In this document: piece by piece, positions 1 to 43,344 of the stretch | How the letters are laid out: every line of letters starts with the position of its first letter | Numbering within the stretch: position 1 is the stretch's first letter | Assembly (NCBI GenBank): GCA_030867685.1 | Contig: JAQOWU010000007.1 | Location: forward strand, 1 to 64,000 | DNA from: Wickerhamiella versatilis | Lineage: Eukaryota | Direction: 5' to 3' | DNA: 64,000 nt | Translations under genes and position numbers: made by a program | The notes under the pieces: generated by a model | Told to the model about the DNA's origin: nothing | The model's input: the letters and a program-made list of their open reading frames with translations, nothing else | Databases searched by the model: none

Positions 1-819
1 CCGTTTCAAGTGAGGCAAACACCTTGGGGAAAGGATTCCACCCTGAATGCGTGGGGGGGGGGGACCAAGGAACCAAGGTTTCAGGCAGTAGGGGGGTTCA
101 TAAGGGGAGGGGGATATGAAGGGGCGTTCCGGTGGGACAGGAAGTAGGCATACAGGATAATGAGTAATTCCAGGGAAGCGATCATATAAAGTGAAGGGCG
201 GGGGGAGGATACCCGGGGGCGCCTCGTATTGAGGTAAAAAGTATGCGTGAAGCATGGGGGCATGAGGTGTGGGAAGAGCTCGGGGAGTGAGCGAAACGCA
301 GACGGGGACAAGGAGCGAAGGGAGTAGAGCCAGCACGGACGGCCAGCGCTGAGAAGAGACGAGGGCACACCGAGGAAGTAATACAGCAAAGACGACGGCA
401 GGCCAAAGGGGGGCAGGAAGGGCCCACGGCACGCCTAGCGGTTGGCGGCAAAGAGAGCCCCTTCACTCCCTAGGACTGGGTGACTGAGGCAGATACCCCG
501 GCCGACAGGACGGGGTGGACGATGGCAAGCAGGCGGTAGATTGGAGGGGTATGAGTCTAACGGATGAAATCGTGCCCAGCGCGCGGGATGACGGATGGGG
601 TGCGAGCTGGTATGGCAATTGAACAAGGCGGATAAGGACGATATAAAATAAATGGCACTGGGGGAGCGGATGGGCTTACTTTATGTGAGTTTAGTGGAGA
701 TTTCCGTTGATCGATTGTCTAGGTGGAGCGAAATGATATTCTGCAATGAGATGCCAAATGTGAACATGAAGTAAGGCCTTAGAACCGAGTACGGCATTAG
801 GAGCAAAGGATTCCGCTTC

Positions 820-1460
820 ACTACCTGGACGGGTGGGTCAGAAGATTGCACCTCCTGCCTGAGACTGGGTTGGCAATTGCAAGATAGCCCACTTGCGGCT
901 ACCTGAGGCTGTTGGACAGACAAAATCAGCCACTCACTTACTGAGACTGGGTACCATTGCCAACATAAGCCTCCCCAGTCCTACCTGAGACTGGTTGACA
1001 CATGCGAATAGCCCTTCACTACTACCTGGAGCGGGTTGGTAAGGCATACCCCTCCCTACCGAGCGGTGGGGGCTGCGCTTGCCAATGCCACTTCGACTAC
1101 ATGAGACGTGTGTTGACATTGCCCCGGCGCGCCGACCTGTGAGCTCTGCACACACCCGGAGGAGGGACAAGAATACGAGTCCGATCTCTGCGTCATTGTC
1201 CGACCGTCTCATATTGAAGTGGGACTATCTGGGCAAATGTGGTCCCCACCCACCAGTCTCGAGTGAAGTGGGGCTATCTTGCATTGTCCACAGTCCGGTG
1301 ATTGGTCTTTTGCTTCCAACGGTCTCAGTGAAGTGGGCTATCTGCATTGTCCACAGTCGCAGTAGTGAGTGGGCTATCTTGCATTGTCCAACCATCTCAG
1401 GTAGTGAGTGGGCTTGCATTGCACCTTTGCTTCCATCCACCAGTCGCAGGTAGGAGTGGA
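820..1460. repeat. Degraded terminal tandem array of the 41-bp unit (minus orientation ~820-1130, plus orientation ~1215-1460); putative telomere
   Basis: Repeated error-laden copies, e.g. GAGACTGGGTTGGCAATTGCAAGATAGCCCACTT (861-894), CTACCTGAGACTGGTTGACA (~980) and AGTGAAGTGGGCTATCTTGCATTGTCCA (~1262-1290, again ~1328 and ~1363). Confidence 0.75.
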
Positions 1461-1759
1461 TATCCGTTGTCCTAGGTCTACTTATCGGGTCTAACGGATC
1501 ATATGGGTCAAATTTGGCATCTCATGTTCACTATACATCTTCGATTACACACGAAAATTCGATCAAAGGAATATCACAATAAACTCACATAAGAGCCCCA
1601 TCCGTATCCACAATGGCCTATTTTTATTTTATATTACGTCTCTTATCCAGCCTTTGTTCTATTCGCATACTCAGCTCGCAACCATACGTCATAACCGCGA
1701 TGGGCCACAGATGGTTATCAGCTTCATAGACTCATATAATCCTACAATTCTACCTGCCT

Positions 1760-1899
1760 TCTTGCATTGTCCAACCAGTCTCAGGTAGTGAAGTGGGCTA
1801 TCTTGCATTGTCCAACCAGTCTCAGGTAGTGAAGTGGGCTATCTGCATTGTCCAACCAGTCTCAGGTAGTGAAGTGGGCTATCTTGCATTGTCCAACCA
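1760..1899 (+). repeat. Tandem array, ~3.4 copies of 41-bp unit TCTTGCATTGTCCAACCAGTCTCAGGTAGTGAAGTGGGCTA
   Basis: Units start at 1760, 1801, 1842 (1-bp deletion) and 1882; otherwise identical. Confidence 0.97.
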
Positions 1900-3328: not shown

Positions 3329-3353
3329 TACCTGAGACTGGTTGGACAATGCA
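3329..3353 (-). repeat. Dispersed 41-bp repeat fragment
   Basis: TACCTGAGACTGGTTGGACAATGCA, exact reverse complement of part of the unit. Confidence 0.93.
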
Positions 3354-5689: not shown

Positions 5690-5864
5690 TCAGGTAGTGG
5701 AGTGGGCTATCTTGCATTGTTATGCTCTACGATGGGGGCTCTATAACACTTCCAATTAACAAAAGGGGGGTGGTATCATATATAACCAACAGTGCAATAA
5801 AAATATTTTTATTATTACAAGCCTTAGGCAGTAAAGCGGGTTATCTTGCATTGTCCAACCAGTC
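5690..5864 (+). repeat. Two dispersed 41-bp repeat fragments (5690-5720; 5826-5864)
   Basis: TCAGGTAGTGGAGTGGGCTATCTTGCATTGT and AGGCAGTAAAGCGGGTTATCTTGCATTGTCCAACCAGTCT. Confidence 0.92.
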
Positions 5865-6115
5865 TTATAGTCTTCTCTCAGTAGCAGTCGCCTATGCGGA
5901 GCATATCGATTCAGGGCATCTCAATGCGAGCTGTTCCTCTGTACTTGTTACAAGGATAGTAATAGCTATCAATGCATATTATTTGTCCACATCCGGGAGA
6001 GCGGGCTATCTGTCCGCTAGCTCCGTGAAGTAAATATGATATATATATCTGGGCTGTGAGCACAGTAGATACCACAAGATTTGATCAAGATACCATGATT
6101 CCTTTCAGTGACATT

Positions 6116-7231: not shown

Positions 7232-7551
7232 TGTGTGTTGCTCCAGATAATGGTTCACCACTCAGTAAGCACAAATACAATGTTAGTCGTGTGATGCTTC
7301 ATCTGATTACGTAATATATTAAGCTCCCAAATGATTTCATGAAAGCCTCCTTGTACGCTTCAAATGATTTTGCACCGAGCTAATTGAATCAGCGTTGTCA
7401 CATAGAGATCTTTACAACTACTAGACTATTATATATTAAACGATATATTCGAGTAATATGGATGTAGGGCATAGTTATACCTCGAAATGGCCTCTAGGTT
7501 CCAATTACTTATGTAGCTTAATTAGCCTATATTCCATCATTGTCTGGTTGG

Positions 7552-7578
7552 AGTGGGCTTTCTTGCATTATCCAACCA
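7552..7578 (+). repeat. Dispersed 41-bp repeat fragment
   Basis: AGTGGGCTTTCTTGCATTATCCAACCA. Confidence 0.88.
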
Positions 7579-10727: not shown

Positions 10728-10906
10728 TGACGGATCTGAGTAGCAAAAAAAAGCTTATATGTGTATCTACATAAATAAAAAGTGAACTAATCATATGTAT
10801 GTGGAGTAGGGTCTCCTATAAACTGCATAATAGTAATGCCACAAGCTATAAAGAAAAGATCCAGCTGTTTCGAAAAAATTAAATTAGACTAAGTATTGCA
10901 TGTAGA

Positions 10907-10943
10907 AAGTGGGCTTTCTTGCGTTGTCCAACCAGTCTCAGGT
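10907..10943 (+). repeat. Dispersed 41-bp repeat fragment
   Basis: AAGTGGGCTTTCTTGCGTTGTCCAACCAGTCTCAGGT. Confidence 0.93.
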
Positions 10944-13069: not shown

Positions 13070-13118
13070 TGGGCTTATCTTGCATTGTCTAACCAGTCTC
13101 AGGTAGTAAAGTGGGCTA
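13070..13118 (+). repeat. Dispersed 41-bp repeat (~1.2 units)
   Basis: TGGGCTTATCTTGCATTGTCTAACCAGTCTCAGGTAGTAAAGTGGGCTA. Confidence 0.94.
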
Positions 13119-13207: not shown

Positions 13208-14410
13208 ATGGATCGTGGGGTTATATCGTTGAGTGAGAGCGGAGCTGAGAAGTTGACCACCATCCTCCAACAGTGCGACGTGCCTGGGGTAGTTGCCGCC
13301 GTAACTAATTCCCGAGGGAACATATTCGTGGGTGCCGAGGGTAAAAGGGATCTGAAAGACGGCGGTGAGATGACTTCAGACACTATTTTTCGAATATTTT
13401 CTTGTACAAAGGCTATCGCAGGTGCGGGAGTGATGAAGCTTGTGGAAACCGGTCGACTGGACCTTGACCTGCCGGCAAAAATCTACGTCCCAGAGCTAGC
13501 AAACGTAAAAGTCATCACGGGATTCGATGATGATGGAGAGCCGCAACTACGGGCACCCAAACAAGATATAACCACTCGTATGTTGATGCTGCATACTGCC
13601 GGCTTTGGATACGCTTTCTTCAACGACGAATACAGACGTCTCTCGGAAACTGGGAGGCTCGCAAACATTATAAATTGCACTTATGAATCAATTAAAGCCC
13701 CTCTCCTTTTTGATCCGGGCGAAAACTGGAATTATGGCCTAAATCTTGACTGGGCTGGAAAGGTTGTTGAGGCTGTTACAGGTAAGTCCTTAGGACTTGC
13801 ATTGAACGAACTGATTCTCGAGCCGCTGGAAATGACGGAAACCACATTTACTTTACCGTCCTCAAAACGTTCTCGTTTAGCCACTATGCATCAGCGTATG
13901 ACTAACGGGAAGCTAGTACCAACTCCTGAAGTCGAATTCCCTGCTGATCCGGAGTCTCATATGGCAGGTCATGGTCTATATGCAACAGTGGGAGATTATA
14001 TGAAATTCATCCGCATGCTTCTAAATAATGGCTTGAGTGACAATGGAACTCGCGTGCTTTCTGCAGATACTGTGGCTAAGATGGCAGAAAATGGTCTATC
14101 TCCAGAAATGAAAGTTGGTGCATTCACTGGTACAATTCCTGAACTCTCGAATGACGTCGAATTTTTCCCGACTGTGTCTAAATCCTGGGCACTAACATTC
14201 ATGACTAATGAGGAGTTAGCACCCACAGGGCGCTCGGCAGGATCCCTTGGTTGGACTGGTTTAGCCAACCTTTTTTACTGGATAGATCGCAAAAGTGGCA
14301 TTGGTGGGTTTTGGGCTACTCAGATTTTCCCTTTCGGAGATAAGGTTTCTCTAAACGGCTGGATGGATTTCGAATCAACTGTATATCAAAACTTGACTCA
14401 GAGTATATAA
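13208..14410 (+). CDS. Beta-lactamase-fold serine hydrolase (family VIII esterase; methyl-acetate hydrolase/LovD-like)
   Basis: FSCTK (SxxK), LMLHTAGFGY, PLLFDPGENWNYG and GSLGWTGLANLFYWID; first ATG at 13208 (the ORF-track start lies within the repeat). Confidence 0.92.
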   Translation: MDRGVISLSESGAEKLTTILQQCDVPGVVAAVTNSRGNIFVGAEGKRDLKDGGEMTSDTIFRIFSCTKAIAGAGVMKLVETGRLDLDLPAKIYVPELANVKVITGFDDDGEPQLRAPKQDITTRMLMLHTAGFGYAFFNDEYRRLSETGRLANIINCTYESIKAPLLFDPGENWNYGLNLDWAGKVVEAVTGKSLGLALNELILEPLEMTETTFTLPSSKRSRLATMHQRMTNGKLVPTPEVEFPADPESHMAGHGLYATVGDYMKFIRMLLNNGLSDNGTRVLSADTVAKMAENGLSPEMKVGAFTGTIPELSNDVEFFPTVSKSWALTFMTNEELAPTGRSAGSLGWTGLANLFYWIDRKSGIGGFWATQIFPFGDKVSLNGWMDFESTVYQNLTQSI

Positions 14411-15185: not shown

Positions 15186-15231
15186 GCATTGTCCCACCAG
15201 TCTCAGGTAGTGAAGTGGGCTAACTTGCATT
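15186..15231 (+). repeat. Dispersed 41-bp repeat (~1.1 units)
   Basis: GCATTGTCCCACCAGTCTCAGGTAGTGAAGTGGGCTAACTTGCATT. Confidence 0.94.
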
Positions 15232-16792: not shown

Positions 16793-16848
16793 GCATTGTC
16801 CAACCAGTCTCAGGTAGTGAAGTGTGCTATCTTGCATTGTCCAACCAG
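16793..16848 (+). repeat. Dispersed 41-bp repeat (~1.4 units)
   Basis: GCATTGTCCAACCAGTCTCAGGTAGTGAAGTGTGCTATCTTGCATTGTCCAACCAG. Confidence 0.95.
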
Positions 16849-18571: not shown

Positions 18572-18606
18572 AGTAGGCTATCTTGCATTGTCCAACCAGT
18601 CTCAGG
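18572..18606 (+). repeat. Dispersed 41-bp repeat fragment
   Basis: AGTAGGCTATCTTGCATTGTCCAACCAGTCTCAGG. Confidence 0.93.
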
Positions 18607-19814: not shown

Positions 19815-19866
19815 ATTGTCCCACCAGTCTCAGGTAGTAAAGTGGGCTGTCTGGCATTGTCCAACC
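19815..19866 (+). repeat. Dispersed 41-bp repeat (~1.3 units)
   Basis: ATTGTCCCACCAGTCTCAGGTAGTAAAGTGGGCTGTCTGGCATTGTCCAACC. Confidence 0.93.
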
Positions 19867-22377: not shown

Positions 22378-22404
22378 GCTATCTTGCATTGACCAACCAG
22401 CCTC
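22378..22404 (+). repeat. Dispersed 41-bp repeat fragment
   Basis: GCTATCTTGCATTGACCAACCAGCCTC. Confidence 0.87.
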
Positions 22405-22480
22405 CATGTACGTAAGCGCTGGGAAACTGATAAAAAGTATATATCATATAAACTATAACTCCCATTGTAAGATCACCGGT

Positions 22481-23383
22481 ATGAGTAGTGTGGAAAAGAA
22501 GCAGTCTAACTTCCTAATTGACTTTCTGTTAGCAGGTGTGTCTGCAACTGTCTCCAAGACGGCTGCGGCCCCTATAGAGCGTATCAAGCTACTTCTACAG
22601 AACCAGGACGAAATGATAAAGCAAGGACGCCTTGAGAGCCGCTATAAAGGCATTGGTGAATGTTTTGTTAGGACTGTGAAGTCTGAGGGTGTGGTTTCCA
22701 TGTGGAACGGAAATCTTGCTAATGTCCTACGTTACTTCCCTACCCAGGCACTTAATTTTGCCTTCAAGGATAAGATTAAGGCCACATTCAAGGAAAATAA
22801 AGATGATACTTTCGTTAAAAAGCTTGGCAAGAACCTCGGTGCTGGTGCTGGTGCTGGTGCACTTTCTTTGCTATTCGTCTACCCTCTGGACTTTGCTCGT
22901 ACTCGACTTGCTGCTACTGCTCGCTCTAAAAGTGGTGAACAGCAGTTCAATGGGTTGTTTGACGTGTTTGGTAAAACCTTTCGCTCGGATGGCATTCGGG
23001 GTCTCTACCGTGGTTTCGGACCATCTGTGGTAGGCATCATGGTTTACCGTGGTTTCTACTTCGGTCTCTATGACTCACTTAAGCCAGTGCTTTTGACAGG
23101 ATCTTTGCGTGATTCCTTTGTAGGTAGCTTTCTCATCGGTTATGCAGGAACTACAGCATCAGGGATCGCTGCATATCCCTTAGACACTGTTCGTCGTCGT
23201 ATGATGATGACTTCAGGAAGTGGTGTTCATTACAAGAGCTCACTTGACTGCTTTAGATCAATTGTTAAGACTTCTGGCGTTTTTTCTCTTTTCAGAGGAG
23301 CTGGTGCTAATATACTTCGAGGTGTTGCTGGTTCCGGAGCGCTTGCACTTTATGACTTATTCAAGAACACTTTGCTCAAGTGA
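22481..23383 (+). CDS. AAC: Mitochondrial ADP/ATP carrier
   Basis: [38 protein letters not shown] and the RRRMMM signature; likely start at 22481 (an in-frame ATG also exists at 22406). Confidence 0.95.
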
Positions 23384-23728
23384 ACCCTTAGAGAGCTATG
23401 AATGCACATCTCCGGGATCAAGGGTACTATATAAGCTTTACAGGTTCAGGTCATGATAATTCTGTTAAGTAAATTCACATAAGATATACTCCTAGATAAG
23501 AAAGATAGTATTTGCATCACATTTTCCAACCAGCTAATTTCAATATCTGGTGGTCACCTATTGTACCATATGAACTGAACTACAGTGCAACCTCAAATAT
23601 AGTGAGGTAATACCCGTAAATAGGACGCATATTGCGGCTCCAAGTATCAGCATGGCAAGGCGTGCGCAGAGCAATCCCAAAATTTTGCTGGAATTAAACT
23701 GGACCAGTCTGGAGATGGTATTTTGTTG

Positions 23729-23754
23729 AGTGGGCTATCTTGCATGGTCCAGCC
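23729..23754 (+). repeat. Dispersed 41-bp repeat fragment
   Basis: AGTGGGCTATCTTGCATGGTCCAGCC. Confidence 0.87.
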
Positions 23755-24188
23755 TTGTTTTACTTAATCAGGAACGCTTACAAGAATTTTTACACACTGT
23801 AAGATAACCCAATTCCTGATCGACTAAGTAGCCTAATTCTTAAAAAGTGACTCAAAGCCATAATAATTATAAAAAAAGGGTGAGGTTCCAGACAAAAGTC
23901 CTCTTCCAGTCATATTGTTTCGTTTTAAGATATTTTGCTATGATACTCATAGTGGATGTTTCGGCAAACACATGATTTACCAAGCGGGACACCAGACAAA
24001 CATATTTTCTGGTCAATGGGTGCAACTGTGAAGTGTGCAGGTAATCTACTCATATAACTTTTCTGCTTAATAGCAGTAAGATGTGGTGATCTTGTGCCCT
24101 TAACCTGCATGTCTTCTAAAGGCTATACACACAACGCAACACAAAAGCAGTTAAATCTTACTCAACCCCAACCCACACTTATCAGTAC

Positions 24189-25796
24189 ATGATTGCTGTG
24201 CCTATGAAACTCGTTTTCTCTAGCTTGGCCTTGCAATTCGTTGCTGCCCTTTTTATTCCCCATGACTTTTCCAGTATCAGTGAAGTTGGACTTGTAGATA
24301 GGCCTGACTTGGCCGATCCAATCACTTCACCCACACTACTTGACCTCGAGGGCAAGTCACCTACGTTAAGTCTGCAAGAGTCTGGCGAGAGAGATGAGAT
24401 TGGAAATTTTGAAACGAAGAGTCGTCTTGGAATGAGGCCTGCTTCGAGCCAAGATACCCTAGAAGATCCCCAAAGTGGCTTGCATACTCTGGAAAATTCT
24501 GATGAGTATGAATCTGGTTTTGAGGCTCCAGACCCCTATATGCCTCCTAATAAGGTTATTGTTGTCTTTCAAGATGATACCACAGCCCAGCAGATTGCCG
24601 AGCATATGGAATTGTTTTTCGATATAAGCGCAGCACATGCACGGCTGCGAGTACACGAGACTGAATACAAGGTAGAGCATGTATTTAACACGGTATTCAA
24701 AGGTTATACGGCTACAATGTCCCCTTTTGTCGTAAACAAGCTGCTAGTGCTTCCCGAGGTTTCCTTTATTGAATATGATCAGAAATGGACCCTCGATGAG
24801 CTTAGTGTTGATAGAAACCTACATAACGTCACTGAGGAAGGTGCACCTTGGGGAATATCTCGCATGTCACAAAGAGATATCCTAGAGCCTGGGATGCTCA
24901 ATGATTATATCTACGATGACGAAGGAGGCCAAGATGTGAATGCATACGTCATTGACACTGGCATATATACCAAACATGATGATTTTGGTGGTCGTGCTTA
25001 TAGAGGTATAACTATTCCTCTCGGTGCCGATGACGAAGATAATATTGGCCATGGCTCGTTTTGTGCAGGCATCATTGCTGGCGACAGATATGGTGTTGCC
25101 AAAAGGGCCCATATCATCGGAGTCAAAGTTATCGATGAGACGAGCGGGTATATCTCGGATGTCATAGCAGGTATAGAATGGACCATCCTCTCTCATCGTC
25201 AGGAAATGAAGAGGAACAAAAAACTCAAAGGGTCTACCGTCAATATATCCCTCTATGGCCTTAAATTTCCAATTCTTGAGCTCGCAGTCAATGCTGCCAT
25301 CGATGCTGGGCTTCATGTGGCCGTGATCGCAGGAAACAGCAACAGAAATGCGTGTGATACCTCCCCTGCTGGTGCCTCGGGCCCAATTACTGTTGGAGCA
25401 ACCGGAATTTTTGATGAGCGCGGGTCCTTCTCTAATTACGGAACCTGTGTCGATATTTTTGCTCCTGGTGTTAATATTACTTCTGTGGGTACATCATCAC
25501 CGAATTCTACTCTTGTGGCATCTGGCACCTCTGCAGCTGCACCACATGTCTGCGGACTTCTTACCTATTTTCTTTCTCTTCAACCTAATACTGACTCTGA
25601 GTATGCTACAAGAGGTCCAGTTACCCCTAAAGAGCTAAAAGAAGCTATAGTTGCCTTTGGATCACAAGGAATGATTTCAGATTTAGATCCTGAGTCGCCT
25701 AACATCCTTGCGTATAATGGTGGTGGCAAGAACTTATCTTCATTTTGGAGTCTTGGTCGTACTAGAATGGACATCGGTTTTGATGGCTCCTTCTAA
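24189..25796 (+). CDS. Subtilisin-like S8 serine protease (proteinase B/Prb1-like) with I9 propeptide
   Basis: Signal peptide, APWGISR, YVIDTG (Asp), GHGSFCAG (His), AGN and SGTSAAAPH (Ser). Confidence 0.93.
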   Translation: MIAVPMKLVFSSLALQFVAALFIPHDFSSISEVGLVDRPDLADPITSPTLLDLEGKSPTLSLQESGERDEIGNFETKSRLGMRPASSQDTLEDPQSGLHTLENSDEYESGFEAPDPYMPPNKVIVVFQDDTTAQQIAEHMELFFDISAAHARLRVHETEYKVEHVFNTVFKGYTATMSPFVVNKLLVLPEVSFIEYDQKWTLDELSVDRNLHNVTEEGAPWGISRMSQRDILEPGMLNDYIYDDEGGQDVNAYVIDTGIYTKHDDFGGRAYRGITIPLGADDEDNIGHGSFCAGIIAGDRYGVAKRAHIIGVKVIDETSGYISDVIAGIEWTILSHRQEMKRNKKLKGSTVNISLYGLKFPILELAVNAAIDAGLHVAVIAGNSNRNACDTSPAGASGPITVGATGIFDERGSFSNYGTCVDIFAPGVNITSVGTSSPNSTLVASGTSAAAPHVCGLLTYFLSLQPNTDSEYATRGPVTPKELKEAIVAFGSQGMISDLDPESPNILAYNGGGKNLSSFWSLGRTRMDIGFDGSF

Positions 25797-25944
25797 CCAT
25801 TTCCCGGTCTGCAGAAATACACCCTGGTGCTGATAAATTCGTTTGGTGATATTTCCAACAGGAAGTTGTAATGATCTATTTCCATATCCTCAAGAAAGTT
25901 TTCCCTGAGAAATCTAGGTAAGCTTTGGGTAGACAGTAAAGTTC

Positions 25945-25970
25945 GTGGGCTATCTAGCATTGACCAACCA
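25945..25970 (+). repeat. Dispersed 41-bp repeat fragment
   Basis: GTGGGCTATCTAGCATTGACCAACCA. Confidence 0.88.
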
Positions 25971-32374: not shown

Positions 32375-33406
32375 AATGCAAGATAGCTGAATTCATTCGC
32401 TACAAAACTCTATGAGCACCTAGGAAAAGTACATTTGCTGGGAAGAATGTTTATTATCATGATTTATTTGTCCAGTGATGTATTTTCTATGTTTATAGGT
32501 GACCATTCATAGCAGGTTATTGTGGTGCTACAAATAAACTGTTCAAACAGCAGCACTCTACTGAATTGTCGCTGCGACAATGCCTCCGCACATTATAACA
32601 AATACACACATCTTTATCGTGAATAAATCTCCAATATGCTTACTAAGCTATTACATCATTAACCAGCAGTGTCGTTCTGGCGGATCATGTCGCGAAGGTT
32701 ATCTTTTGGCAGCAGTTCTTAAATTATTGTGCTCATAGTCGATTGATCAGAATATACTGACATCGGAATCTTTAGCATGCAAAAAACTTTTACGGAGCAC
32801 AATACAACCGGAGCCATGAGTGGAGGCAGGCATGTCTGCGACTGCGTTCTGGCTAGTGGTTTTCCGCCGCGGTGGAAAAATGATTGATTGCCTTGCGGAA
32901 GCTTATCGCTATGTTGATATGACAAATCTGTCATCGGTTATTATTCTCGCAGCAAGTGCGTTGATGACGAACCAAGCTCACAAACCTGGTGATCTCATGG
33001 AAAGAATTCTCTGTCGTGGGACTGGAGAGATCCTACAAACTCCGTGATGTTGCTTGGATCTACAAAGTCGTTAGAATTGATTTGAATTAGGTTCTTCCAT
33101 ATGAGCAATTACTTGGTTATAATCAGTATAAGTTGATGGAATTTTTCACCCTCCATAATGGTCGAGCGTAATAAGAGCTCTCCATTATTTATAAGGTATA
33201 TTGCTACAATGCACGTTGTACGCTTCCTTCTTCTTGGTATAAAGACGCGAATCTCTTCTATGGATAACGAGGGTTTGTCACTTAATACGTCTTGCCAAAG
33301 GGTCAAAAAAGGATATGAAAAGCCTTTTAGGCGGTATACTGTTCATGCGAGATCTCAACAGAATAATCTTATGTAGTACTATTCTGGGCTATCTTGCATT
33401 GTACAA
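32375..33406. repeat. Two 41-bp repeat fragments (32375-32387 minus; 33385-33406 plus)
   Basis: AATGCAAGATAGC; TGGGCTATCTTGCATTGTACAA. Confidence 0.8.
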
Positions 33407-33961
33407 GCTGTCCCAGGGAGTGAAGATGTGACACAATTTGGGCCCAAGGGACACCCTTACCACTATATGTATTATGCTATTATAGGATTCGCTATCGATT
33501 CCCTGCGAATTCTGTACAAGGCTATCCACAACGACCCCATGACTTGAAAAACACGTAGTATCATTTTGCCGATATTGAGCCAAAAAAAAGCTATCTGTTG
33601 TTACGGTTTATATTTGTGTTCGCAATATTTCTGGGTATGGGTGTTTGTTACCGGAGCTATCTGCGGTGTTACGTACCCTTAACCTTGACTATGATTTGCC
33701 ATTGTTATCCGATATCGACAATCACTGACCGGTGTTGGTAAACAAAGATGCTGGTTTTGCGGCTCAGAGGATAACCCAACATTTACAACTAGTCTCCGGG
33801 CATGTCGTGCTAATTTCTCACGGGTTGCCACTATAAATGATATCGCGCTAAACTATCTAAAAAGCCGCTACTGGTAAACAAAGAATTAACAATAATAAGG
33901 TTCAGCAACACCAGAAACATATTTCGTATGTATATCGGCTCATATTTCATTGTCCTAGCGG

Positions 33962-35527
33962 TTATTCACAGTCTTGTTTCCAAGCATAAGGCGAACTAGC
34001 TCGTAGGAATTTCCCAAATCTGTAGAATATAAAGGGAAACGGAAGTGCGAGAACACTCAGGCAACCAAGAAGTGTGCCTGCCCACTGGACACCCAGGTTG
34101 TGGAACAGTTGAGTGGCAAACAACGGAAATGCGGCTGCCATCCCTGCTCTAACAAATGCCGTAGCTGAATTGGCTGATGCAGCAAATTGAATATATACAT
34201 CAGTGATGTAATTCACGGACTGCAAAAACATTTGGAATATCCCATAAGTGACGAATATTTCTCCTACACAGGGAACAAGCCAATGCACTTGTTTAGGGTA
34301 TGCCCCGGACCAACATAGCCAGAATATTCCTATAGGAAAAGAAACAGCACCAGTCATCATAGGGAGGAGACGCGCTTCTGGGATCGATTTGGATTGGCGC
34401 TTCTTTAGAATCCTTGAAAATCTTCGCTCAAAATATAAGAAGCTTATCGAACCAGCAAAAAGAGTTCCCACAAGCAGGCCTATGTATGGGAGGAATTTAA
34501 TGCCCTTGTGGAAGCCAAGACCAGCTTCTTCATAGCCATCAAAAATTATCGGAACCGCTTCTAGACATAAGTATAGAATGCCATACACGTATCCAACATA
34601 TATTGATATGATAAGAAGTACAGGTTCCGTAAAAAGCATTTTGATTGGTCTTAACACATTATTTTGACAAACAGTTTTGAAATCAAAAGAAACGCTTTCT
34701 TGTTCCGCATGGATTCCCCAAATGCCTGTGTGCTGCCGTAACTCATCAGCTTTTGAAATGAGTAGAATGGGGCGATATGTTTCTTCTGCAGCAAATACAA
34801 ACAAAAGTGCTGCTGCACATGAAGGAATTGCCACGATGTACTGGGTCCAACGCCAACCAAGGTAGCTATACGCTATGAAGGCTCCGACAATCGGACTTAC
34901 CAGTGGGCCTGTAATTGTGGCCATTGTGAAAGCCGTCATCACATTGCCTCTTGTCGAGACAGAAAAAAGGTCAGAAATGGTGGCAGGCAGAATTGATACC
35001 GCACCCGCGCCAAATGATCCACCAAAAAAACGCGAGAGCATAAGTGTTTGTACGTTGGGAGCAGTGGCTGATGCAAAAGAACAGCAAATAAATGCAATCT
35101 GGCTAATTATATATGGTGGTCTACGGCCGTAGACCTCTGAAAGTGGGCCCCAGACTATAGGGCCTAAAGCAAATCCCAGAACAAAAAGGCTCACACCTAA
35201 TGCGGCAGGGGTCACTCCAATATTGAACTCATTTTCAACCATAGGCAATGCTGGGCCATAAATGCTGGACATAAATGCGATTAGAATATTCGGGAATATA
35301 TATACCAGTACCTGCCATACTTTTTTTTGAATATTCCAATTGTAAGGTAAGTATGGGTCAAGAGGGTCCTCAAAATGCACTTCATATTGCTCTTTTGGGG
35401 GAAGCGCTGGTGGGAGAGCTATCTCAATGCCCGCTGAGGCCACCGTTTGCAATTTCTGAATAGGACTGGATTCATTTGTAGTTTTCATGTCGATCACTCG
35501 CGGCAGCGGCTTCTCAGTGCCATCCAT
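33962..35527 (-). CDS. MFS DHA1 multidrug/polyamine transporter (Tpo1/Flr1-like)
   Basis: PYNW..KK, GPIVWGPLSEVYGRRP, GWRW, PEARL and FPLFA; about 12 TM segments. Confidence 0.93.
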   Translation of the reverse strand: MDGTEKPLPRVIDMKTTNESSPIQKLQTVASAGIEIALPPALPPKEQYEVHFEDPLDPYLPYNWNIQKKVWQVLVYIFPNILIAFMSSIYGPALPMVENEFNIGVTPAALGVSLFVLGFALGPIVWGPLSEVYGRRPPYIISQIAFICCSFASATAPNVQTLMLSRFFGGSFGAGAVSILPATISDLFSVSTRGNVMTAFTMATITGPLVSPIVGAFIAYSYLGWRWTQYIVAIPSCAAALLFVFAAEETYRPILLISKADELRQHTGIWGIHAEQESVSFDFKTVCQNNVLRPIKMLFTEPVLLIISIYVGYVYGILYLCLEAVPIIFDGYEEAGLGFHKGIKFLPYIGLLVGTLFAGSISFLYFERRFSRILKKRQSKSIPEARLLPMMTGAVSFPIGIFWLCWSGAYPKQVHWLVPCVGEIFVTYGIFQMFLQSVNYITDVYIQFAASANSATAFVRAGMAAAFPLFATQLFHNLGVQWAGTLLGCLSVLALPFPFIFYRFGKFLRASSPYAWKQDCE

Positions 35528-37117
35528 AATATCTGGTAAGCTACAATAAATTCACTAGTGATGATCACTGTTCAGTGAATCGATCAGTCGGGCTAGAGAA
35601 AGTAGAATTCGTTATATAATGATGTGCGGAGACGATCAGTGCCTCCTCATTTCCTGCTCAAAACTATCTCGATTAGCTACCAAAAAAATAATATATGAAC
35701 ATGGATATGGGTATATACCGATATATCAAAGGGCACTGTGACTTTTGTTTTCTCGGCCAGTACCTCATGAGCCTCCCTCCCTCCCCCCAGGAATCAATAT
35801 TCGATGAGCTCTGGAGAGGATATTGTGCTAATGAGCTAAGAAACTAAGTAGCACATTCTTATGGTATGTAGATGATCTCAGTGGTAGTTTAAAGAAATGA
35901 AATCGGAAAATGTTTTCCGATTTGCCACAAGCTTAAACTCTTCAAGAACCGCATAGAATATCCCACTCCCCTTCGGATCTAGGTAGTGAAATAGAATAAT
36001 TTGTCTGTCAAAATAAAGTGTAAAATCTTACACAAGTATGCTACTATTATTTATCTTCATAGGAACACAATAAATGATGATGATTATCTTGGGTTTGACA
36101 TGGACTCAATACCATGGACTCGTACCCAGAATTTCAAGAAAATATTGAATCGTTCTCCCTACTCTATGGAAAACAGAGTCTCGACTTCCGGGTATCAATT
36201 TCTCATTGTTCCAACCTGATGGAGACTGAATTAGAGACCGTAAAAGCTGCTTCGAATTGAAAATATGTACCGAATCAACGGAAATATCTTTATTTGAGAG
36301 GGTATCCCGATTATCTCTACCAGCAACTGCGCCACTAGCCTCCGAGGGTCCATTGGCCTGCTCCCGAAAAGACCTCAACACGTATCCAGGCCTACTACCC
36401 GGAATTGCAGAATCTTCGCGACCAGGCATATTCCACAATATAATTTTCAGATCTTTGCGGAAATACAAGCTTTCCACGGTAAATCTTTTGGTCATATATA
36501 TGTATACATTACAATAGATAACCTAGCCCTCCTCTCGGATGCTCTGCGGTCTGCACTCAGACAGCAACCCTTATATTAGCCCTAGCATTTATCCAATTAC
36601 CAAGAATTATGCCCGAATAGGGGTTAAATGGAAGTCAACCACCTCTGTCGCGCGATTGATGTTCATCTATCGGCGACTTCCGAGCTAGTACCTTGAACCC
36701 TAGGTAAACTTAGATAAAAAACCGATTTTAGGTAACCGTTAACGTTGAACGCGAAAGACAAAAGCGGTGGGTATGATAGTTGCAAATAAATAATTAATTT
36801 CCTCAACACTATTTAAATTCCCTTTCAGCTTCTTGCGGGATGATATGAGCTCTTGTAATACAACATCCGCAACATGTGTACCCACACTCTCGGTATTAGG
36901 CTGAACTAATATGCGCTGATCCGATAAAAAATACAGAAATGGAATCCTCGGAAAACACAATATCCTCTTGTTTACCCTGCAAATGCTTTTCCATAGTGTT
37001 GCTCCTGTCCTAAATATATAAGGATCTTAGCCTAAGCTTGGTAACGATGCCCGTCGATAGGAATTCGGCTCAGTTCAACGGGCGCTTCTTTAGGATAGGG
37101 GTATTACTGAAGCTATA

Positions 37118-37663
37118 ATGATAACAAACCGCATACACCAGACCTCTAATGGAATAGTCCAAAAAGCAATCCACGAAAATATTTGTTCCGGCGGTGATCT
37201 TCTTGTCATTAATGAAGTAGACCCTACGAGTGCGCCAGCTCAAAAATGCCTGGATGCTTACTATGAGGAGATAAACTGTCGACTTAACGGTCAATATAAT
37301 GTGAATCTTTCGCGAGTACCGGCTAATGAAGATATGCAGAGCCCCCGCGGTATGTTTCTAGTAGCAACTATTAGTGGCTTGTCAGTTGGATGTGCCGGCC
37401 TTAGCGGTACAGATAAGGGCTACGCGGAGGTAAAAAGAGTCTGGGTTTCCCCCCAGTTCCGAAGGTGTCGCATCTGTAGCATGATGTTACAGTGTCTAGA
37501 ACTTTCTGCCCGCAGATTGGGTTACAAGCTGCTGAGACTAGATACGAATAGCGTCTTGCATGAAGCAATCGCGCTCTATTCTAGATTTGGGTGGCACCAA
37601 ATCGAAAGATTCAACGAGGATCCTTATCCTGATCATTTCTTCGAAAAGCCCTTGGACCAGTGA
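37118..37663 (+). CDS. GNAT family N-acetyltransferase (bacterial type)
   Basis: AEVKRVWVSPQFR, LRLDTNSVLHEAIALY and IERFNEDPYPDHFFEKPL. Confidence 0.88.
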   Translation: MITNRIHQTSNGIVQKAIHENICSGGDLLVINEVDPTSAPAQKCLDAYYEEINCRLNGQYNVNLSRVPANEDMQSPRGMFLVATISGLSVGCAGLSGTDKGYAEVKRVWVSPQFRRCRICSMMLQCLELSARRLGYKLLRLDTNSVLHEAIALYSRFGWHQIERFNEDPYPDHFFEKPLDQ

Positions 37664-38273
37664 GCTTCTGTGTGAAAATTCATCAAGTAGTTGACGTGAG
37701 CTGCTACAACTTAGAGTTGACCAACAATGTCGGGTGTTATTTAGAAGAGTTTCTCACTATAACTCTTGGACGAGTTGAGCCATTTAAAGTATAGATCCAT
37801 TCCTACTTGAGGTAGTCTTAGAAGCCCTATAAGTTGCATTTTCGAATTTTATTTTTAGTAAAGTGTTCTATATGATGACGTTTCCCATAGGAGTGCAGAT
37901 AAATTAAAAACTGCAGCATTGTGTGGTCCGCATAACACACCGGGAAAGTAGTTAGGTCAAGAAAAATGAAAGATAGGAAAGTCTATTTGGGTAGATTAAG
38001 CTGTCAATTAGAGCGAAAAGTACTTCTAGCAGTGGTATACTGTACTTAGAAGAAGTTAAGCTATATGGAATGAAAATATGGTATGGTCAGATTCAAGGGA
38101 GCACCATATCCAGATGACCCTCCTCAGTGTACTGGTCCATATAAGGACGTGGAAAACATGTATCAAGTTAATAGCACTGATATTACATATAGCACAGTGA
38201 ATTACCATGACAATGAGGACATCGCTACTCCCATTATTTCATCCATATACTCTAGTTGCAGTGAACTACAAAG

Positions 38274-39629
38274 AAATGCGCAATATAATGTGAAATCAAG
38301 GCAAAAGAGTAATTTATGTTGCACTATCCACCAGTAGTACCTGAGACTGGTTCATTTGCGTAGTCAACCCTGGGTTAGCTCTTCGTCAGAAAGTGTTGGT
38401 TTAGCAGCAAACTGCTGTTCAGATTCAACCAGTCATTCCAATCGTATGATCCTTTACCCTACCGAAGCACCTCTTACTCGTCGGGAAATATTTATTGGAG
38501 CATCCCAGTCAAGAAACTCATCTGTCTTTATTGGTCGACGGATTAAAATTGGCTTAATAGCTGGTTCTTAAGTATGAGCGAGCCATCCTGCAATGAAATC
38601 AGCCACTATAGGCATAACTCGCACGACTAGGCCTACATGAACTTGTCACATCAAACGATTTGCGGAAAGGGGCTTCCATAGTAGACGCATGGAATTATAA
38701 TACCCGCTAATATTTCTTGAGTCAAGCCAGGGTAAACCTACTTATACAACTTTCTTAACCAGTATTAGGCAGCATTAAAGCTTGCCATCTCAGATGGTCG
38801 ACAATGTCGGAGGTTGAAAATTCAGATGCCGGAAAAAAATAGCCTATGGTCTCGCATGGACAAAAGAAAAAGATTCTGATTATTTATATTTTTTTCCCAT
38901 GTATTTTAGATTTTTTTAGCGATGTTATACCCTCACCTCGCTGACAAACACTCACGTGAAATTCTCTTTAACGTGATTCACTACAACCGTTATTAAACAG
39001 TTTAAAATAGAAAATCTATGGGTCTAGTCACTGCTTTACGTGCTACTATGAAATTACCTGGTCCTCAGGCTTCAATTAAGCGCCAATAACAGAGTTCATT
39101 ATTTTCAGTTTAGGACGGAGGGTTATGCATAATTGGGTAATCTATCCGGTAGATAGCACGTCGCATAAATGGTGGGTATTTTCCTGCCATGTAGGTATAA
39201 CTAAGATAAACCATGATCGCACAATACTACTTCCTACTCGAAAACAACCAGAAGTACTCTCCATCTAATCAATGTGTCTTTAGCAGCGTGATGTCGCCTT
39301 CATGGTCCGGCAGCTCAAACATGTCGAAGCACTCAAAAAAGTTGATTTCTAAAATTAAGGATCATTTTTCCTGAATCAGCTACAGTGATAAACGGTAGAA
39401 CTCATTCAGAATGGTATTTTCCTGTATCTTCACCCCCAACGCGAAGTGCCCCATTACGTCTATATAGTAGAACCCACGGACTCATCCCAGGGGGAGGAAG
39501 TGTTGGCCGAGATAGAATTGATAGATGTACCGGGATCTACTTGCAGATAACAGCAAAAAAATGCGCAATATAATGTGACATCAACGTAGACTAAGAGTAA
39601 TTTATCTTGCATTGTCCACCAGTAGTACC
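38274..39629 (+). repeat. Pair of ~70-bp direct repeats (38274-38341; 39559-39629), each containing a 41-bp-unit fragment; first copy abuts an inverted fragment (38338-38352)
   Basis: AAATGCGCAATATAATGTGA.ATCAA...AAGAGTAATTTAT.TTGCA.T.TCCACCAGTAGTACC at both sites. Confidence 0.85.
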
Positions 39630-39650
39630 CTGGGGTTTAGGACAATGATA

Positions 39651-41642: not shown

Positions 41643-41841
41643 TCACTCGGTTTCCAAACATGTTCTGATTGGCATTATATTTCCCTAAATCGTTTGACTA
41701 TATTTCTACTCGTCCCCTTCATTTATCTAACGAGCCGCTAATATCGGACTGAATGAATTAGATCCGATCCGATCAGCGATCTTAAAACGAGTGAGAATCA
41801 CCTCGCTGATTTCAAAGATTCTGCAAAATAAAATAACCAGC

Positions 41842-43344
41842 ATGTCTGGCTTGACGTACGATTCTCTCGGTCCAGGAGAGCCTTTGCCACCTATTCCAGG
41901 CAAAGAAGCTTCATACGACGTTAAATTTATAGAAAACGATGAAGAAAATCCCAAGAATTGGAGCACTACAGAAGTGAACTTCACAATAGTTCTTGCTGCA
42001 GCTATCGTTTTTTTATCCACATGGGGCTCGTCAGTGGTAGCACCTGCCATCGTTGAAATTACCAAAGAGTTCCAGGTCGGCTTTGTTGTCGCCACTTTAT
42101 GCATTTCACTGTACGTAGTTGGATATGCGGTTGGGCCTGTCCTTTGGGGACCGGCCAGTGAGCATTATGGCCGTCGTCCTATTCTTCTTGTAGGTGTTTT
42201 TGGATTCACCGTGTTCAGCTTTGCATCCGCAACAGCAAAGGATTTTCAGACATTGGTGATCACTCGATTCTTTACAGGTGCTTTCGGCTCTTCGCCACTT
42301 TCCGTATCTCCATCTATGGGTGTGGACTGTTTAAATCAGAATAAACTTGGCGCAGCCATGGGTATTGTCATTAGTATGGTAATCACGGGTGCATTGATAT
42401 CGCCTGTGGTCGCCAGTTATATCACGACATCATATCTCGGGTGGCGCTGGACAGAATATATTACAGGGATTATGGGATCGTTTGTCCTTGTGATTTCTTT
42501 ATTTTTTTTGAAGGAAACTTATCCACCGCGGATTCTAGCTGCTAGAGCAGAGGTTATTCGCAAAGAAACAGGAAATTGGGCTATCGCAGCGCCAATAGAA
42601 CGCATTGGCATGGACTTTCGTGGAATTGTTCGAAATTTAATGTTAACACCCATGATTATGTTGGCAGTCGAACCTATTCTTCTCCTGGTAAGCCTGCATC
42701 TCGGATTTATATATGGAATACTCTACCTCTGTCTGGATGCAGTACCTATTATCTTCGAGACATATGGCTGGCCCCAGGAGAATCTGTTTCTACCGTACTT
42801 AGGAATGGTCGTTGGAGATGTATTAGTAGTGATGTGCCACCTGTTATACTTCGAGAAACGGTATAATAGGCTAGTGGCCAAGAGTGGAAAGCCTTTCCTT
42901 CCAGAGGAGCGCCTTCAGCTGATGATTCTCTCAAGTATTTTATTTCCCATAGGCATTTTTTTGATGTGCTGGGCAGGAGCCTATCAGGTACATTGGATTG
43001 TTCCCACAATAGGACTTTCCATTATAGGATTCGGGCTGACTGGAATATTCATTTCTGCATTCACTTATATTGTGAGTTGTTATTTAACATTATCTGCATC
43101 AGCGATAGCAGCAAATACTTTCGTGCGTTCGAGTTTCGGATGTTCATTCCCCCTCTTCGCACGTGCTTTGTTCCATAATTTAGGGACCCAATGGGCAGGA
43201 ACTCTGCTCGGCTGTTTAGCTGCTTTACTAGCTGTGGCTCCCATACTCTTCTATTGGCTTGGGGCAGAATTGCGGACAAAATCAAAGTTTGCAATCAACC
43301 TAGAAAGCCTTCAAGGAAAGTCAGTGCGCCATGAAAAGACATAG
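41842..43344 (+). CDS. MFS DHA1 multidrug/polyamine transporter
   Basis: ENPKNWS, GPVLWGPASEHYGRRP, GWRW, PEERL and FPLFA; first ATG at 41842. Confidence 0.93.
   Translation: MSGLTYDSLGPGEPLPPIPGKEASYDVKFIENDEENPKNWSTTEVNFTIVLAAAIVFLSTWGSSVVAPAIVEITKEFQVGFVVATLCISLYVVGYAVGPVLWGPASEHYGRRPILLVGVFGFTVFSFASATAKDFQTLVITRFFTGAFGSSPLSVSPSMGVDCLNQNKLGAAMGIVISMVITGALISPVVASYITTSYLGWRWTEYITGIMGSFVLVISLFFLKETYPPRILAARAEVIRKETGNWAIAAPIERIGMDFRGIVRNLMLTPMIMLAVEPILLLVSLHLGFIYGILYLCLDAVPIIFETYGWPQENLFLPYLGMVVGDVLVVMCHLLYFEKRYNRLVAKSGKPFLPEERLQLMILSSILFPIGIFLMCWAGAYQVHWIVPTIGLSIIGFGLTGIFISAFTYIVSCYLTLSASAIAANTFVRSSFGCSFPLFARALFHNLGTQWAGTLLGCLAALLAVAPILFYWLGAELRTKSKFAINLESLQGKSVRHEKT

What the first reader, a model, noticed from the sequence alone, without database searches (positions are those of the whole stretch)
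820..1899. Candidate 41-bp telomeric repeat, far longer than typical yeast units
Seen: tandem copies occupy the apparent contig terminus (the fold-back centre) and a second array ~300 bp inward. Established: budding-yeast telomerase repeats are variable, with the long ones around 23-26 bp (Candida, Kluyveromyces). This unit is 41 bp and lacks G/C strand skew (11 G vs 9 C). Inference: either a telomerase with an exceptionally long template or telomerase-independent end maintenance.
Basis: partly seen in the sequence, partly recalled or inferred. Interest (0 to 1): 0.85.

Follow-up and report, generated by a model that had tools for sequence, protein, structure and literature searches.

The report
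Long 41-bp yeast chromosome-end repeat
A 41-base repeat sits at the very end of this yeast chromosome piece and fragments of it lie between nearly all neighbouring genes, so it is probably an unusually long (but not unprecedented) telomere repeat that also has an unexplained presence inside the chromosome.

Summary
A 41-bp unit (11 G, 9 C) forms a noisy terminal tract (~1160-1472), a 288-bp spacer, then a clean 3.4-copy array (1760-1899). Bases 1-1157 are a low-quality reverse-complement mirror of the same end, most likely a fold-back long-read artefact, so the copies at 813-1039 are not separate sequence.

The unit is probably this budding yeast's telomeric repeat (confidence 0.6). It is extreme but not unprecedented: published yeast units run from 5 to a putative 43 nt.

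Telomerase involvement, other chromosome ends, TERT and the RNA template could not be tested, because no genome is held.

- From 2 to 26 kb, 12 of 13 copies share the terminal array's orientation and reach beyond a 29-nt core, like interstitial telomeric tracts between single genes. One of those genes is clearly bacterial in origin.
- Further in, only the 29-nt core survives, with sharp edges and mixed orientation.

A dispersed-element or minisatellite reading remains a serious rival.

The parts
1..1157 (.). Low-quality reverse-complement mirror of about 1157-2343: the fold-back arm, most likely a long-read assembly artefact and not separate genomic sequence
   Evidence: Alignment at 57-76% identity per bin. 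G 35% against C 21%, and four G runs of 6-11 bases with no C-run counterpart in the other arm. GC skew +0.39 to +0.53 over 1-800.
813..1039 (-). Mirror image of the terminal array inside the fold-back arm
   Evidence: BLAST of 3 units: 813-918 at 78% and 930-1039 at 73% on the - strand.
1160..1472 (+). Terminal tract of the 41-bp unit, roughly 7-10 noisy units, running up to the turn-around of the fold-back, which is the physical end of the molecule
   Evidence: BLAST hits at 1194-1295 (76%), 1315-1414 (87.5%) and 1439-1472 (77.5%). A lenient alignment gives 9.5-10.6 units at 69-70% identity across the centre. About 60 bases around the centre are unreadable.
1473..1759 (+). Spacer of 288 bp between the two arrays; a telomere-associated sequence that occurs in several variants in other assemblies
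   Evidence: Contigs of all 4 laid runs cover 1507-1775 and join a unit to position 1507. There are 2-3 further variant contigs at 1690-1744. Seven single-base gaps at 1532-1593 show uncorrected errors in the window (tables 3, 4, 5, 8).
1760..1899 (+). Clean inner array, 3.4 units of 41 bp, ending at unit position 18
   Evidence: TRF 98% matches, score 273. Contigs of X1 and X2 cover 1870-3606 with 0 differences (table 8).
3329..3353 (-). Partial unit, 25 of 25 identical; the only inverted copy within 2-26 kb
5690..5865 (+). Two partial units (5690-5720 and 5817-5865) in the convergent intergenic region between ORF 3490-5586 and the OYE gene
   Evidence: 31 nt at 97% and 49 nt at 86%.
7549..7578 (+). 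Partial unit between the OYE and lipase genes
   Evidence: 30 nt at 90%.
10899..10943 (+). Partial unit (1.1 units) between the BNR and NMO genes
   Evidence: 46 columns at 89%.
13070..13118 (+). Partial unit (1.2 units) ending 89 nt upstream of the bacterial-type hydrolase gene
   Evidence: 49 columns at 94%.
13208..14410 (+). Serine hydrolase gene of bacterial origin (AcmB-like), lying between two co-oriented unit copies
   Evidence: Every named hit among the 120 best homologues is bacterial, with Gluconacetobacter sacchari best at 64%. NCBIfam AcmB scores 544.6 bits against a cut-off of 550. The exact protein was seen on 8 contigs.
15186..15231 (+). Partial unit (1.1 units) between the hydrolase and flavin reductase genes
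   Evidence: 46 nt at 96%.
16793..16848 (+). Partial unit (1.4 units) in a 1.4-kb non-coding interval. Considered as a telomerase RNA template and rejected, because it carries a G-to-T difference that no array copy has.
   Evidence: 56 nt at 98%.
18572..18606 (+). Partial unit between the GPR1/FUN34 gene and a 137-aa ORF
   Evidence: 35 nt at 97%.
19815..19866 (+). Partial unit (1.3 units)
   Evidence: 52 nt at 92%.
22378..25970 (+). Three core-type copies (22378-22404, 23729-23754, 25945-25970), one in each intergenic interval around the ADP/ATP carrier and subtilase genes
   Evidence: 26-27 nt at 92-93%.
33385..63495 (.). Fourteen further aligned copies, mostly the 29-nt core alone. On +: 33385, 39603, 50645, 52035, 56960, 57961, 59486, 60961, 61059, 63465. 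On -: 49882, 50116, 52187, 55872.
   Evidence: Agreement of their flanks with the array is 0.26 and 0.32, which is the random level.

Best explanation
The 41-bp unit is most likely this budding yeast's telomeric repeat. The assembled molecule ends in a tract of about 7-10 units. A fold-back long read then ran back along the other strand, which produced the noisy mirror in bases 1-1157. Behind the terminal tract lie a 288-bp telomere-associated spacer and a second, short array, much as short telomeric tracts separate subtelomeric elements in other yeasts. By analogy with other budding yeasts that have long, complex, homogeneous units, I infer that the repeat is copied from a telomerase RNA template longer than 41 nt. 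This was not shown. The strand ending 3' at the terminus would read as the reverse complement of the unit given in the window. The many internal partial copies are best read as two things. Near the end (2-26 kb) they are interstitial telomeric tracts, co-oriented with the terminal array, left where earlier chromosome ends were extended. Further in, only a 29-nt core persists, probably because it is the binding site of the double-strand telomere-binding factor. Such factors also bind internal sites in other yeasts. Shown: the arrays, their position at the fold-back centre, and the number, orientation and placement of the internal copies. Inferred: telomerase, the template, the binding protein, and the origin of the internal copies.
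For: (1) The array lies at the turn-around of the fold-back at the start of the window.
(2) In all 4 laid assemblies (3 studies) a contig joins a unit to the spacer start at 1507. The spacer exists in 2-3 additional variant contigs per run, as expected of a sequence shared by several chromosome ends (tables 3 and 5).
(3) Summed word depth over the array bins is 2064-9061, against about 11-29 in the next single-copy bin. This fits a few hundred array-type copies, though the tool warns that summed depth is not a copy number (table 2).
(4) 156-235 contigs per run were laid, and 86-103 of them lay only partly on the stretch. Their loose ends differ in sequence (agreement 0.43-0.64), so the unit adjoins many different sequences (tables 1 and 7).
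(5) 12 of 13 copies between 2 and 26 kb have the orientation of the terminal array whatever the gene orientation (p = 0.003). They also extend into the 12-nt part of the unit outside the core, with flank agreement 0.56 and 0.48 against 0.25 by chance. They therefore derive from tandem units.
(6) The copies share no flanking homology, so they are not parts of a longer mobile element.
(7) The gene content is subtelomere-like: a GLEYA adhesin, transporters, Zn2Cys6, and a bacterial xenolog.
(8) Published yeast units reach 28 bp and a putative 43 nt.
(9) Telomere-binding proteins Rap1, Tay1 and Teb1 also act at promoters (passages of PMC12449055).
Against: - The strand that would end 3' at the terminus has 9 G and 11 C and no G run; the only GGG is on the other strand. 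This is atypical for telomerase products.
- The unit shows no similarity to the P. kudriavzevii 28-mer beyond shuffles on either strand (163 and 454 of 500 shuffles reach the observed score).
- Beyond 20 kb the copies are a discrete 29-nt element with sharp edges, random flanks (0.26 and 0.32) and mixed orientation (10 on + against 4 on -, p = 0.18). Decayed random telomere fragments would not look like this.
- Copy length and identity do not fall significantly with distance from the end (Spearman -0.21, p = 0.30, and -0.27, p = 0.17).
- About 60 bases at the turn-around are unreadable, so a different short terminal tract cannot be excluded.
- Only one chromosome end was seen. No TERT, no RNA template and no other ends could be examined.
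Confidence: 0.6

Rival explanations
1. The primary entity is a dispersed 29-nt intergenic element: a protein-binding site, or the remnant of a mobile or repair-inserted sequence. It has expanded locally into 41-bp minisatellite arrays in the subtelomere. The true telomere is another repeat that was lost in the unreadable turn-around or never assembled.
For: The core occurs 37 times at 20 or more of 29 matches, against 0.2 expected. It lies in 20 of 24 intergenic intervals, including convergent ones without promoters. 31 of 32 copies are outside ORFs (p = 1e-8). Beyond 20 kb the edges are sharp, the flanks random and the orientation mixed. The unit has no G-rich 3' strand. The centre of the fold-back is unreadable.
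Against: The tandem tract reaches the turn-around itself. The copies nearest the end carry the non-core 12 nt and cross unit junctions in variable phase, so they derive from tandem arrays and not from solo cores. 12 of 13 of them share the terminal array's orientation. The element has no terminal inverted repeats, no target duplications and no shared flanks, and no Rfam or tRNA match.
Confidence: 0.2
2. The array is the functional chromosome end but is kept up without telomerase, by recombination or rolling-circle copying (ALT-like). This is proposed for naturally telomerase-negative Microstromatales yeasts with noncanonical terminal arrays.
For: The unit is long and lacks a G-rich 3' strand. 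There is a precedent in the abstract of PMC13234504. The array-spacer-array layout and the many internal copies could serve as recombination templates.
Against: In that precedent the motifs are mostly specific to single chromosome ends. Here the same unit lies on 156-235 contigs per assembly. The clean array is 98% homogeneous. Long homogeneous units are made by telomerase in other budding yeasts (PMC7857110 passage). No gene-content test was possible.
Confidence: 0.12
3. The fold-back is biological: the chromosome really ends in a covalently closed hairpin or a terminal palindrome, which a long read would traverse from one strand to the other.
For: The inverted duplication is centred in the array. 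Fold-back reads are what a hairpin end would give.
Against: The mirror arm is only 57-76% identical, with strong G excess and G runs that have no counterpart in the other arm. That is the signature of poor base-calling. The unit has no hairpin-forming tendency: z = +1.0 on the + strand and +2.35 on the - strand, where all 200 shuffles fold at least as well. Nuclear hairpin telomeres are unknown in fungi (recalled).
Confidence: 0.03

Closest known systems
Long, complex telomerase-templated repeats of budding yeasts (23-25 bp in Candida albicans and Kluyveromyces lactis, recalled; 28 bp in Pichia kudriavzevii; putative 43 nt in Pichia norvegensis)
   Same: A homogeneous tandem unit of tens of bases at a chromosome end, with no resemblance to TTAGGG. 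Its length falls inside the published 5-43 nt range (PMC7857110 passage; PMC12424327 and PMC5592916 passages).
   Different: The presumed 3' strand is not G-rich (9 G against 11 C). The unit shows no detectable similarity to the P. kudriavzevii unit. The organism does not look like a Pichia: the best named hits of its KTR protein are only 44-54% identical, to Trichomonascus, Lipomyces and Tortispora. Telomerase and the template were not examined.
Interstitial telomeric tracts at subtelomeric element boundaries (yeast X-TG1-3-Y', human subtelomeric duplicons; recalled)
   Same: Short tracts identical to the terminal unit, co-oriented with the telomere, between blocks of subtelomeric DNA.
   Different: The density is about one per intergenic interval over tens of kb. 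The blocks are single genes and not duplicated elements (one search finds no shared flanks). Further in, only a fixed 29-nt core remains.
Internal binding sites of telomere-binding factors (Rap1, Tbf1, Tay1, Teb1 sites; plant telo-boxes, recalled)
   Same: A piece of the telomeric unit recurs at internal, non-coding sites. Such proteins are known to serve both telomeres and promoters (PMC12449055 passages).
   Different: The copies have no preferred distance to start codons and are as frequent in convergent, promoter-free intervals. A conserved length of 29 nt is long for one factor. No protein was tested.
Chromosome 'end' domains rich in horizontally acquired genes in Wickerhamiella/Starmerella yeasts, and foreign genes in subtelomeres of bdelloid rotifers
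   Same: A bacterial-type gene sits in a chromosome-end region of a roughly 10-Mb food-fermentation yeast. Xenologs accumulate near chromosome ends in those yeasts (PMC13376923 passages) and in rotifers (PMC8494291 passages).
   Different: Membership of this organism in that yeast clade was not established. The main text of PMC13376923 has no occurrence of 'interstitial' or 'telomere-like'. Its supplementary data, which may list the telomere motifs, could not be read.
Noncanonical terminal arrays of telomerase-negative Microstromatales yeasts
   Same: Tandem non-TTAGGG motifs at chromosome ends (abstract of PMC13234504).
   Different: There the motifs are mostly end-specific and TERT is absent. 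Here one unit recurs on many contigs, and TERT status is unknown.

Membership tests
Telomerase-made telomeric repeat | Tandem array at the physical end of the chromosome | tested here: met
   The array runs up to the fold-back centre at about 1157 at the start of the window. This covers one end only, and the last 60 or so bases are unreadable.
Telomerase-made telomeric repeat | Same unit and same polarity at all chromosome ends | tested here: inconclusive
   No genome is held. Indirect evidence only: unit-to-spacer joints in all 4 laid runs, 2-3 spacer variants, and 156-235 contigs per run carrying the unit.
Telomerase-made telomeric repeat | G-rich or G-clustered strand running 5' to 3' towards the end (typical, not absolute, in yeasts) | tested here: not met
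   The strand ending 3' at the terminus has 9 G, 11 C and no GGG.
Telomerase-made telomeric repeat | Telomerase RNA locus with a template of slightly more than one permuted unit | not testable with these tools
   No genome is held. The only in-window candidate (16793-16848, 1.4 units in a non-coding interval) has a G-to-T change absent from all array copies, and it resembles its neighbouring interstitial copies.
Telomerase-made telomeric repeat | TERT (EST2) gene present | not testable with these tools
   No genome is held. Pfam on the 22 window ORFs gives no reverse transcriptase.
Telomerase-made telomeric repeat | Terminal location shown biochemically (BAL31 sensitivity, length heterogeneity) | not testable with these tools
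   Needs bench work.
Interstitial telomeric sequences | Identity to the terminal unit across unit junctions, in variable phase | tested here: met
   The copies at 2-20 kb start at unit positions 4, 22, 15, 30, 23, 35, 5, 5, 33 and 7, and are 86-100% identical.
Interstitial telomeric sequences | Orientation the same as the adjacent telomere | tested here: met
   12 of 13 between 2 and 26 kb (p = 0.003); 10 of 14 beyond that (p = 0.18).
Interstitial telomeric sequences | Fragments of arbitrary extent, with no fixed boundaries | tested here: not met
   All 17 aligned copies beyond 20 kb start at unit positions 28-40, and 11 of 17 end at positions 17-23. Their flanks agree with the array at the random level.
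Fold-back long-read assembly artefact | Inverted duplication at a contig end, with one arm of poor quality and skewed composition | tested here: met
   57-76% identity between the arms. G 35% against C 21%, and G runs of 6-11 in the left arm only. Residual single-base errors reach position 1593 (table 4).
Mobile element (MITE, solo LTR, transposon end) | Shared sequence beyond the repeat, terminal inverted repeats or target-site duplications | tested here: not met
   Self-BLAST of 1151-27000 against the window finds only the unit itself shared between copies. There are two tail-to-tail pairs with 27-29-nt spacers, but they are weak.
ALT-type noncanonical telomeres (Microstromatales type) | Motif specific to one chromosome end, and TERT absent | tested here: inconclusive
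   The unit lies on many contigs with different flanks, which argues against end-specificity. TERT status is unknown.

The most novel reading that the evidence does not exclude
The first 26 kb or so is a chain of single-gene segments. Each was added to the chromosome end as a separate DNA fragment: the fragment was joined to the old, short telomere, and a new telomere was seeded on its free end. Every junction therefore keeps a co-oriented telomere remnant. At least one fragment (13208-14410), and possibly its neighbour (15518-16075), came from bacteria. If so, telomere-end capture would be a mechanism of horizontal gene acquisition in a yeast. The 29-nt cores further in would be the oldest such scars, preserved because a telomere-binding factor still uses them.
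Probability: 0.2. Interest if true: 0.8.

Novelty: new variant of a known kind. Interest (0 to 1): 0.55.

Why it matters
If it is telomeric, this unit is among the longest known in fungi, and it lacks the G-rich 3' strand on which end-binding proteins usually depend. It would therefore be a useful extreme for studying how telomerase templates and capping proteins co-evolve. The dense, oriented remnants between single genes, one of them bacterial, offer a concrete and testable mechanism for how foreign genes pile up at yeast chromosome ends. If the rival is right, the window instead shows an abundant 29-nt intergenic element of unknown function.

Tried and rejected
- **No genome.** A whole-genome search was impossible: no genome is held.
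- **No cover on the mirror arm.** Laying contigs of 4 runs gave no cover on 1-835 and next to none up to 1169 (table 2).
- **Collection scans found nothing.** Exact-pattern scans found nothing with a 25-mer in metagenome and genome contigs or with a 22-mer core in metagenome contigs.
- **Bacterial context not recovered.** The search for related loci with the hydrolase protein found no relative. I could not see whether the hydrolase and flavin reductase genes are neighbours in a donor genome.
- **Not in print.** Four substrings of the unit searched in the paper library gave one unrelated hit for one of the four strings. The unit is not printed in any held main text. Supplementary tables of PMC7857110 and PMC13376923, which may list it, were not readable.
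- **No homology to the P. kudriavzevii 28-mer.** The resemblance I thought I saw by eye is not above shuffles.
- **Template candidate rejected.** I considered 16793-16848 as a telomerase RNA template and rejected it, because of a G-to-T change absent from the arrays.
- **Not a promoter or terminator element.** The copies have no preferred distance to start or stop codons, and they occur in convergent intervals too.
- **No age gradient.** Copy length and identity do not decline significantly with distance.
- **TTAGGG not the telomere.** It occurs 12 times on + and 10 on -, against 14.5 expected per strand. It is not enriched apart from one cluster at 9033-9083.
- **No RNA family or tRNA.** Rfam and tRNA scans found nothing.
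- **No hairpin tendency.** DNA folding shows none.
- **Uninformative plasmid matches.** OYE (45%) and NMO (41%) against bacterial plasmids say nothing about origin.
- **Earlier notes and Atlas.** Earlier findings of this scan for this genome and this sequence: none.
- **Organism not placed.** The nearest relatives of two window proteins are unnamed (84% and 77%); named ones reach only 70% and 54%.

Full report
**What is there**

The window opens with 1157 bases that are a poor reverse-complement copy of the next 1200 or so. The reverse complement of 1-1200 aligns with 1115-2343 at 57-76% identity per 100-base bin, which puts the centre at about 1157.

The left arm is compositionally abnormal. 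It has G 35% against C 21%, four G runs of 6-11 bases with no C-run counterpart in the right arm, and GC skew +0.39 to +0.53 over 1-800. I read it as a fold-back long read that extended the contig past the physical end of the molecule and was never corrected. The right arm still carries seven single-base gaps at 1532-1593 relative to short-read contigs of four runs (tables 4 and 8).

From the centre inward the real arm has three parts:
- a noisy tract of the unit, with BLAST hits at 1194-1295, 1315-1414 and 1439-1472 at 76-87.5% identity;
- a 288-bp spacer;
- a clean array at 1760-1899, with period 41, 3.4 copies and 98% matches.

However, the copies at 813-1039 are only the mirror of the terminal tract.

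**Is it the telomere?**

No genome is held for this window.

Indirect evidence comes from laying Logan contigs of two metagenome runs and two isolate runs (3 studies) on 1-5000:
- In all four runs a contig joins a unit to the start of the spacer at 1507.
- The spacer exists in 2-3 further variants per run.
- 156-235 contigs per run were laid, and 86-103 of them lay only partly on the stretch, with loose ends of low mutual agreement (0.43-0.64).
- Summed word depth over the array bins is 2064-9061, against about 11-29 in the next bin. The tool warns that this is not a copy number.

This is what a unit shared by several chromosome ends and many internal sites would give. It is not proof.

The gene content is subtelomere-like: a GLEYA adhesin with a 129-bp internal repeat, MFS transporters and a Zn2Cys6 factor.

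Against a classical telomerase repeat, the strand ending 3' at the terminus has 9 G, 11 C and no G run. About 60 bases at the turn-around are unreadable.

**Literature**

A review of 204 yeast species states that predicted units range from 5 nt to a putative 43 nt in Pichia norvegensis. I saw the passage in PMC7857110, not its supplementary table. A 28-bp unit is reported for P. kudriavzevii (passages of PMC12424327 and PMC5592916). So 41 bp is extreme but not beyond what is in print.

Substrings of the unit are not printed in any held main text. The unit is not similar to the P. kudriavzevii unit beyond shuffles.

The nearest relatives of two of its proteins are unnamed sequences (84% and 77%), and named ones reach only 70% and 54%. 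Sixteen of the 24 listed runs hold at least half of the sampled words. They are food-fermentation, food, sediment and unspecified metagenomes, plus isolates with about 10.2 Mb of contigs.

**The unexpected part**

The unit is not confined to the end. A BLAST of three units finds hits over the whole 64 kb. An ungapped scan with a 29-nt core (unit positions 32-41 plus 1-19) gives 37 matches at 20 or more of 29 positions (28 on +, 9 on -), against a mean of 0.2 and a maximum of 1 in 30 shuffles.

Of the 32 copies I tabulated beyond 1900, 31 lie wholly outside ORFs, which fill 49% of that span (p = 1e-8). Twenty of 24 intergenic intervals hold at least one copy: 19 by strict containment, plus one copy that runs 5 bases into a 137-aa ORF. 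These include convergent intervals without promoters. There is no preferred distance to start or stop codons. The copies share nothing beyond the unit itself. Rfam and tRNA scans are empty.

**Two classes of copy**

*Between 2 and 26 kb.* Twelve of 13 aligned copies have the orientation of the terminal array whatever the gene orientation (p = 0.003). At 2-20 kb they start at scattered unit positions and are up to 1.4 units long. They also agree with the array outside the core, at 0.56 and 0.48 against 0.25 by chance (n = 9). These behave like interstitial telomeric tracts derived from tandem units.

*Beyond 20 kb.* All 17 aligned copies start at unit positions 28-40, and 11 of the 17 end at positions 17-23. 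Their flanks agree with the array at the random level, 0.26 and 0.32 (n = 21). Core agreement there is inflated by how the copies were chosen; the flank values are not. Beyond 26 kb the orientation is 10 on + against 4 on - (p = 0.18). These are a discrete 29-nt element.

A decline of length or identity with distance is not significant.

**Genes between the copies**

From 3.3 to 26 kb, almost every segment between consecutive copies holds one gene.

ORF 13208-14410 is bacterial in origin. Every named hit among its 120 best homologues is bacterial, with Gluconacetobacter sacchari best at 64%. It scores 544.6 bits on NCBIfam AcmB against a cut-off of 550. The exact protein was seen on 8 contigs.

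Its neighbour, the flavin reductase gene 15518-16075, is 55% identical over 96% of its length to alphaproteobacterial plasmid genes. No fungal comparison was possible for it. OYE (45%) and NMO (41%) are uninformative.

A paper on Wickerhamiella/Starmerella yeasts reports three chromosomes, 'end' domains rich in horizontally acquired genes, and telomere motifs searched with words of 5-60 nt (passages of PMC13376923). Its main text has no occurrence of 'interstitial' or 'telomere-like', and I could not read its supplements. I did not establish that the window's organism belongs to that clade.

**Reading**

| Reading | Confidence |
|---|---|
| Telomeric repeat, presumably telomerase-templated. 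Near-end copies are interstitial telomeric tracts; the 29-nt core is the site of a telomere-binding factor that also binds internally, as Rap1, Tay1 and Teb1 do elsewhere (passages of PMC12449055). | 0.6 |
| A dispersed 29-nt element that expanded into subtelomeric minisatellites, with the true telomere unseen. | 0.2 |
| A functional end maintained without telomerase, as in Microstromatales (abstract of PMC13234504). | 0.12 |
| A real hairpin or palindromic end. | 0.03 |

The boldest reading not excluded (0.2) is that gene-sized fragments, some bacterial, were captured one after another at the chromosome end, each junction keeping a telomere seed. This parallels what is discussed for bdelloid rotifer subtelomeres (passages of PMC8494291) and earlier notes of this scan on other genomes (unchecked).

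**Verdict**

The length claim is deflated by the literature. The missing G-richness and the dense, oriented, gene-by-gene internal copies are the features that deserve follow-up with the whole genome and raw long reads.

Noticed in passing
window 9033-9085: The only cluster of TTAGGG-like units in the window (about three to four units, G-rich on the + strand). It lies 27-79 nt upstream of the start of the secretory-lipase ORF 7624-9006 (-), in one of the four intergenic intervals that lack a 41-bp-unit copy. TTAGGG is not enriched elsewhere (12 on + and 10 on -, against 14.5 expected per strand). Possibly a Tbf1/Tay1-type promoter site.
   Followed up: partly
window 13208-14410 and 15518-16075: A bacterial-type AcmB-like serine hydrolase gene: every named hit among the 120 best is bacterial, with an Acetobacteraceae member best at 64%. 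Next to it, a flavin reductase gene is 55% identical to alphaproteobacterial plasmid genes. These are likely horizontally acquired genes in a yeast chromosome end.
   Followed up: partly
window 23729-23814 and 52130-52214: Two tail-to-tail inverted pairs of the 29-nt core, separated by 29 and 27 nt. One partner of each pair is weak (20 of 29 matches). Too few to interpret.
   Followed up: no
window 53175-54952: A 129-bp tandem repeat, 13.8 copies at 91% matches, inside the 1161-aa GLEYA/PA14 adhesin-like ORF 52302-55787 (-). This is typical of yeast adhesins.
   Followed up: no
window 46013-46420: A 203-bp direct repeat, 2.0 copies at 74% matches, spanning the 5' end of the SDR gene 45127-46098 (-) and its upstream region.
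   Followed up: no
window 1760-1841, - strand: The presumed 3'-end strand of the unit folds worse than expected as single-stranded DNA (z = +2.35): all 200 dinucleotide shuffles fold at least as well. It is unusually free of secondary structure.
   Followed up: no
window 3571-4138: Part of ORF 3490-5586 (698 aa, no Pfam family) has 2-4 times the summed contig depth of its surroundings, and variant contigs, in all four laid runs. This suggests a small gene family.
   Followed up: no
window 24077-24134 and 30657-30714: A 58-nt stretch shared at 86% identity by two intergenic regions, unrelated to the 41-bp unit.
   Followed up: no
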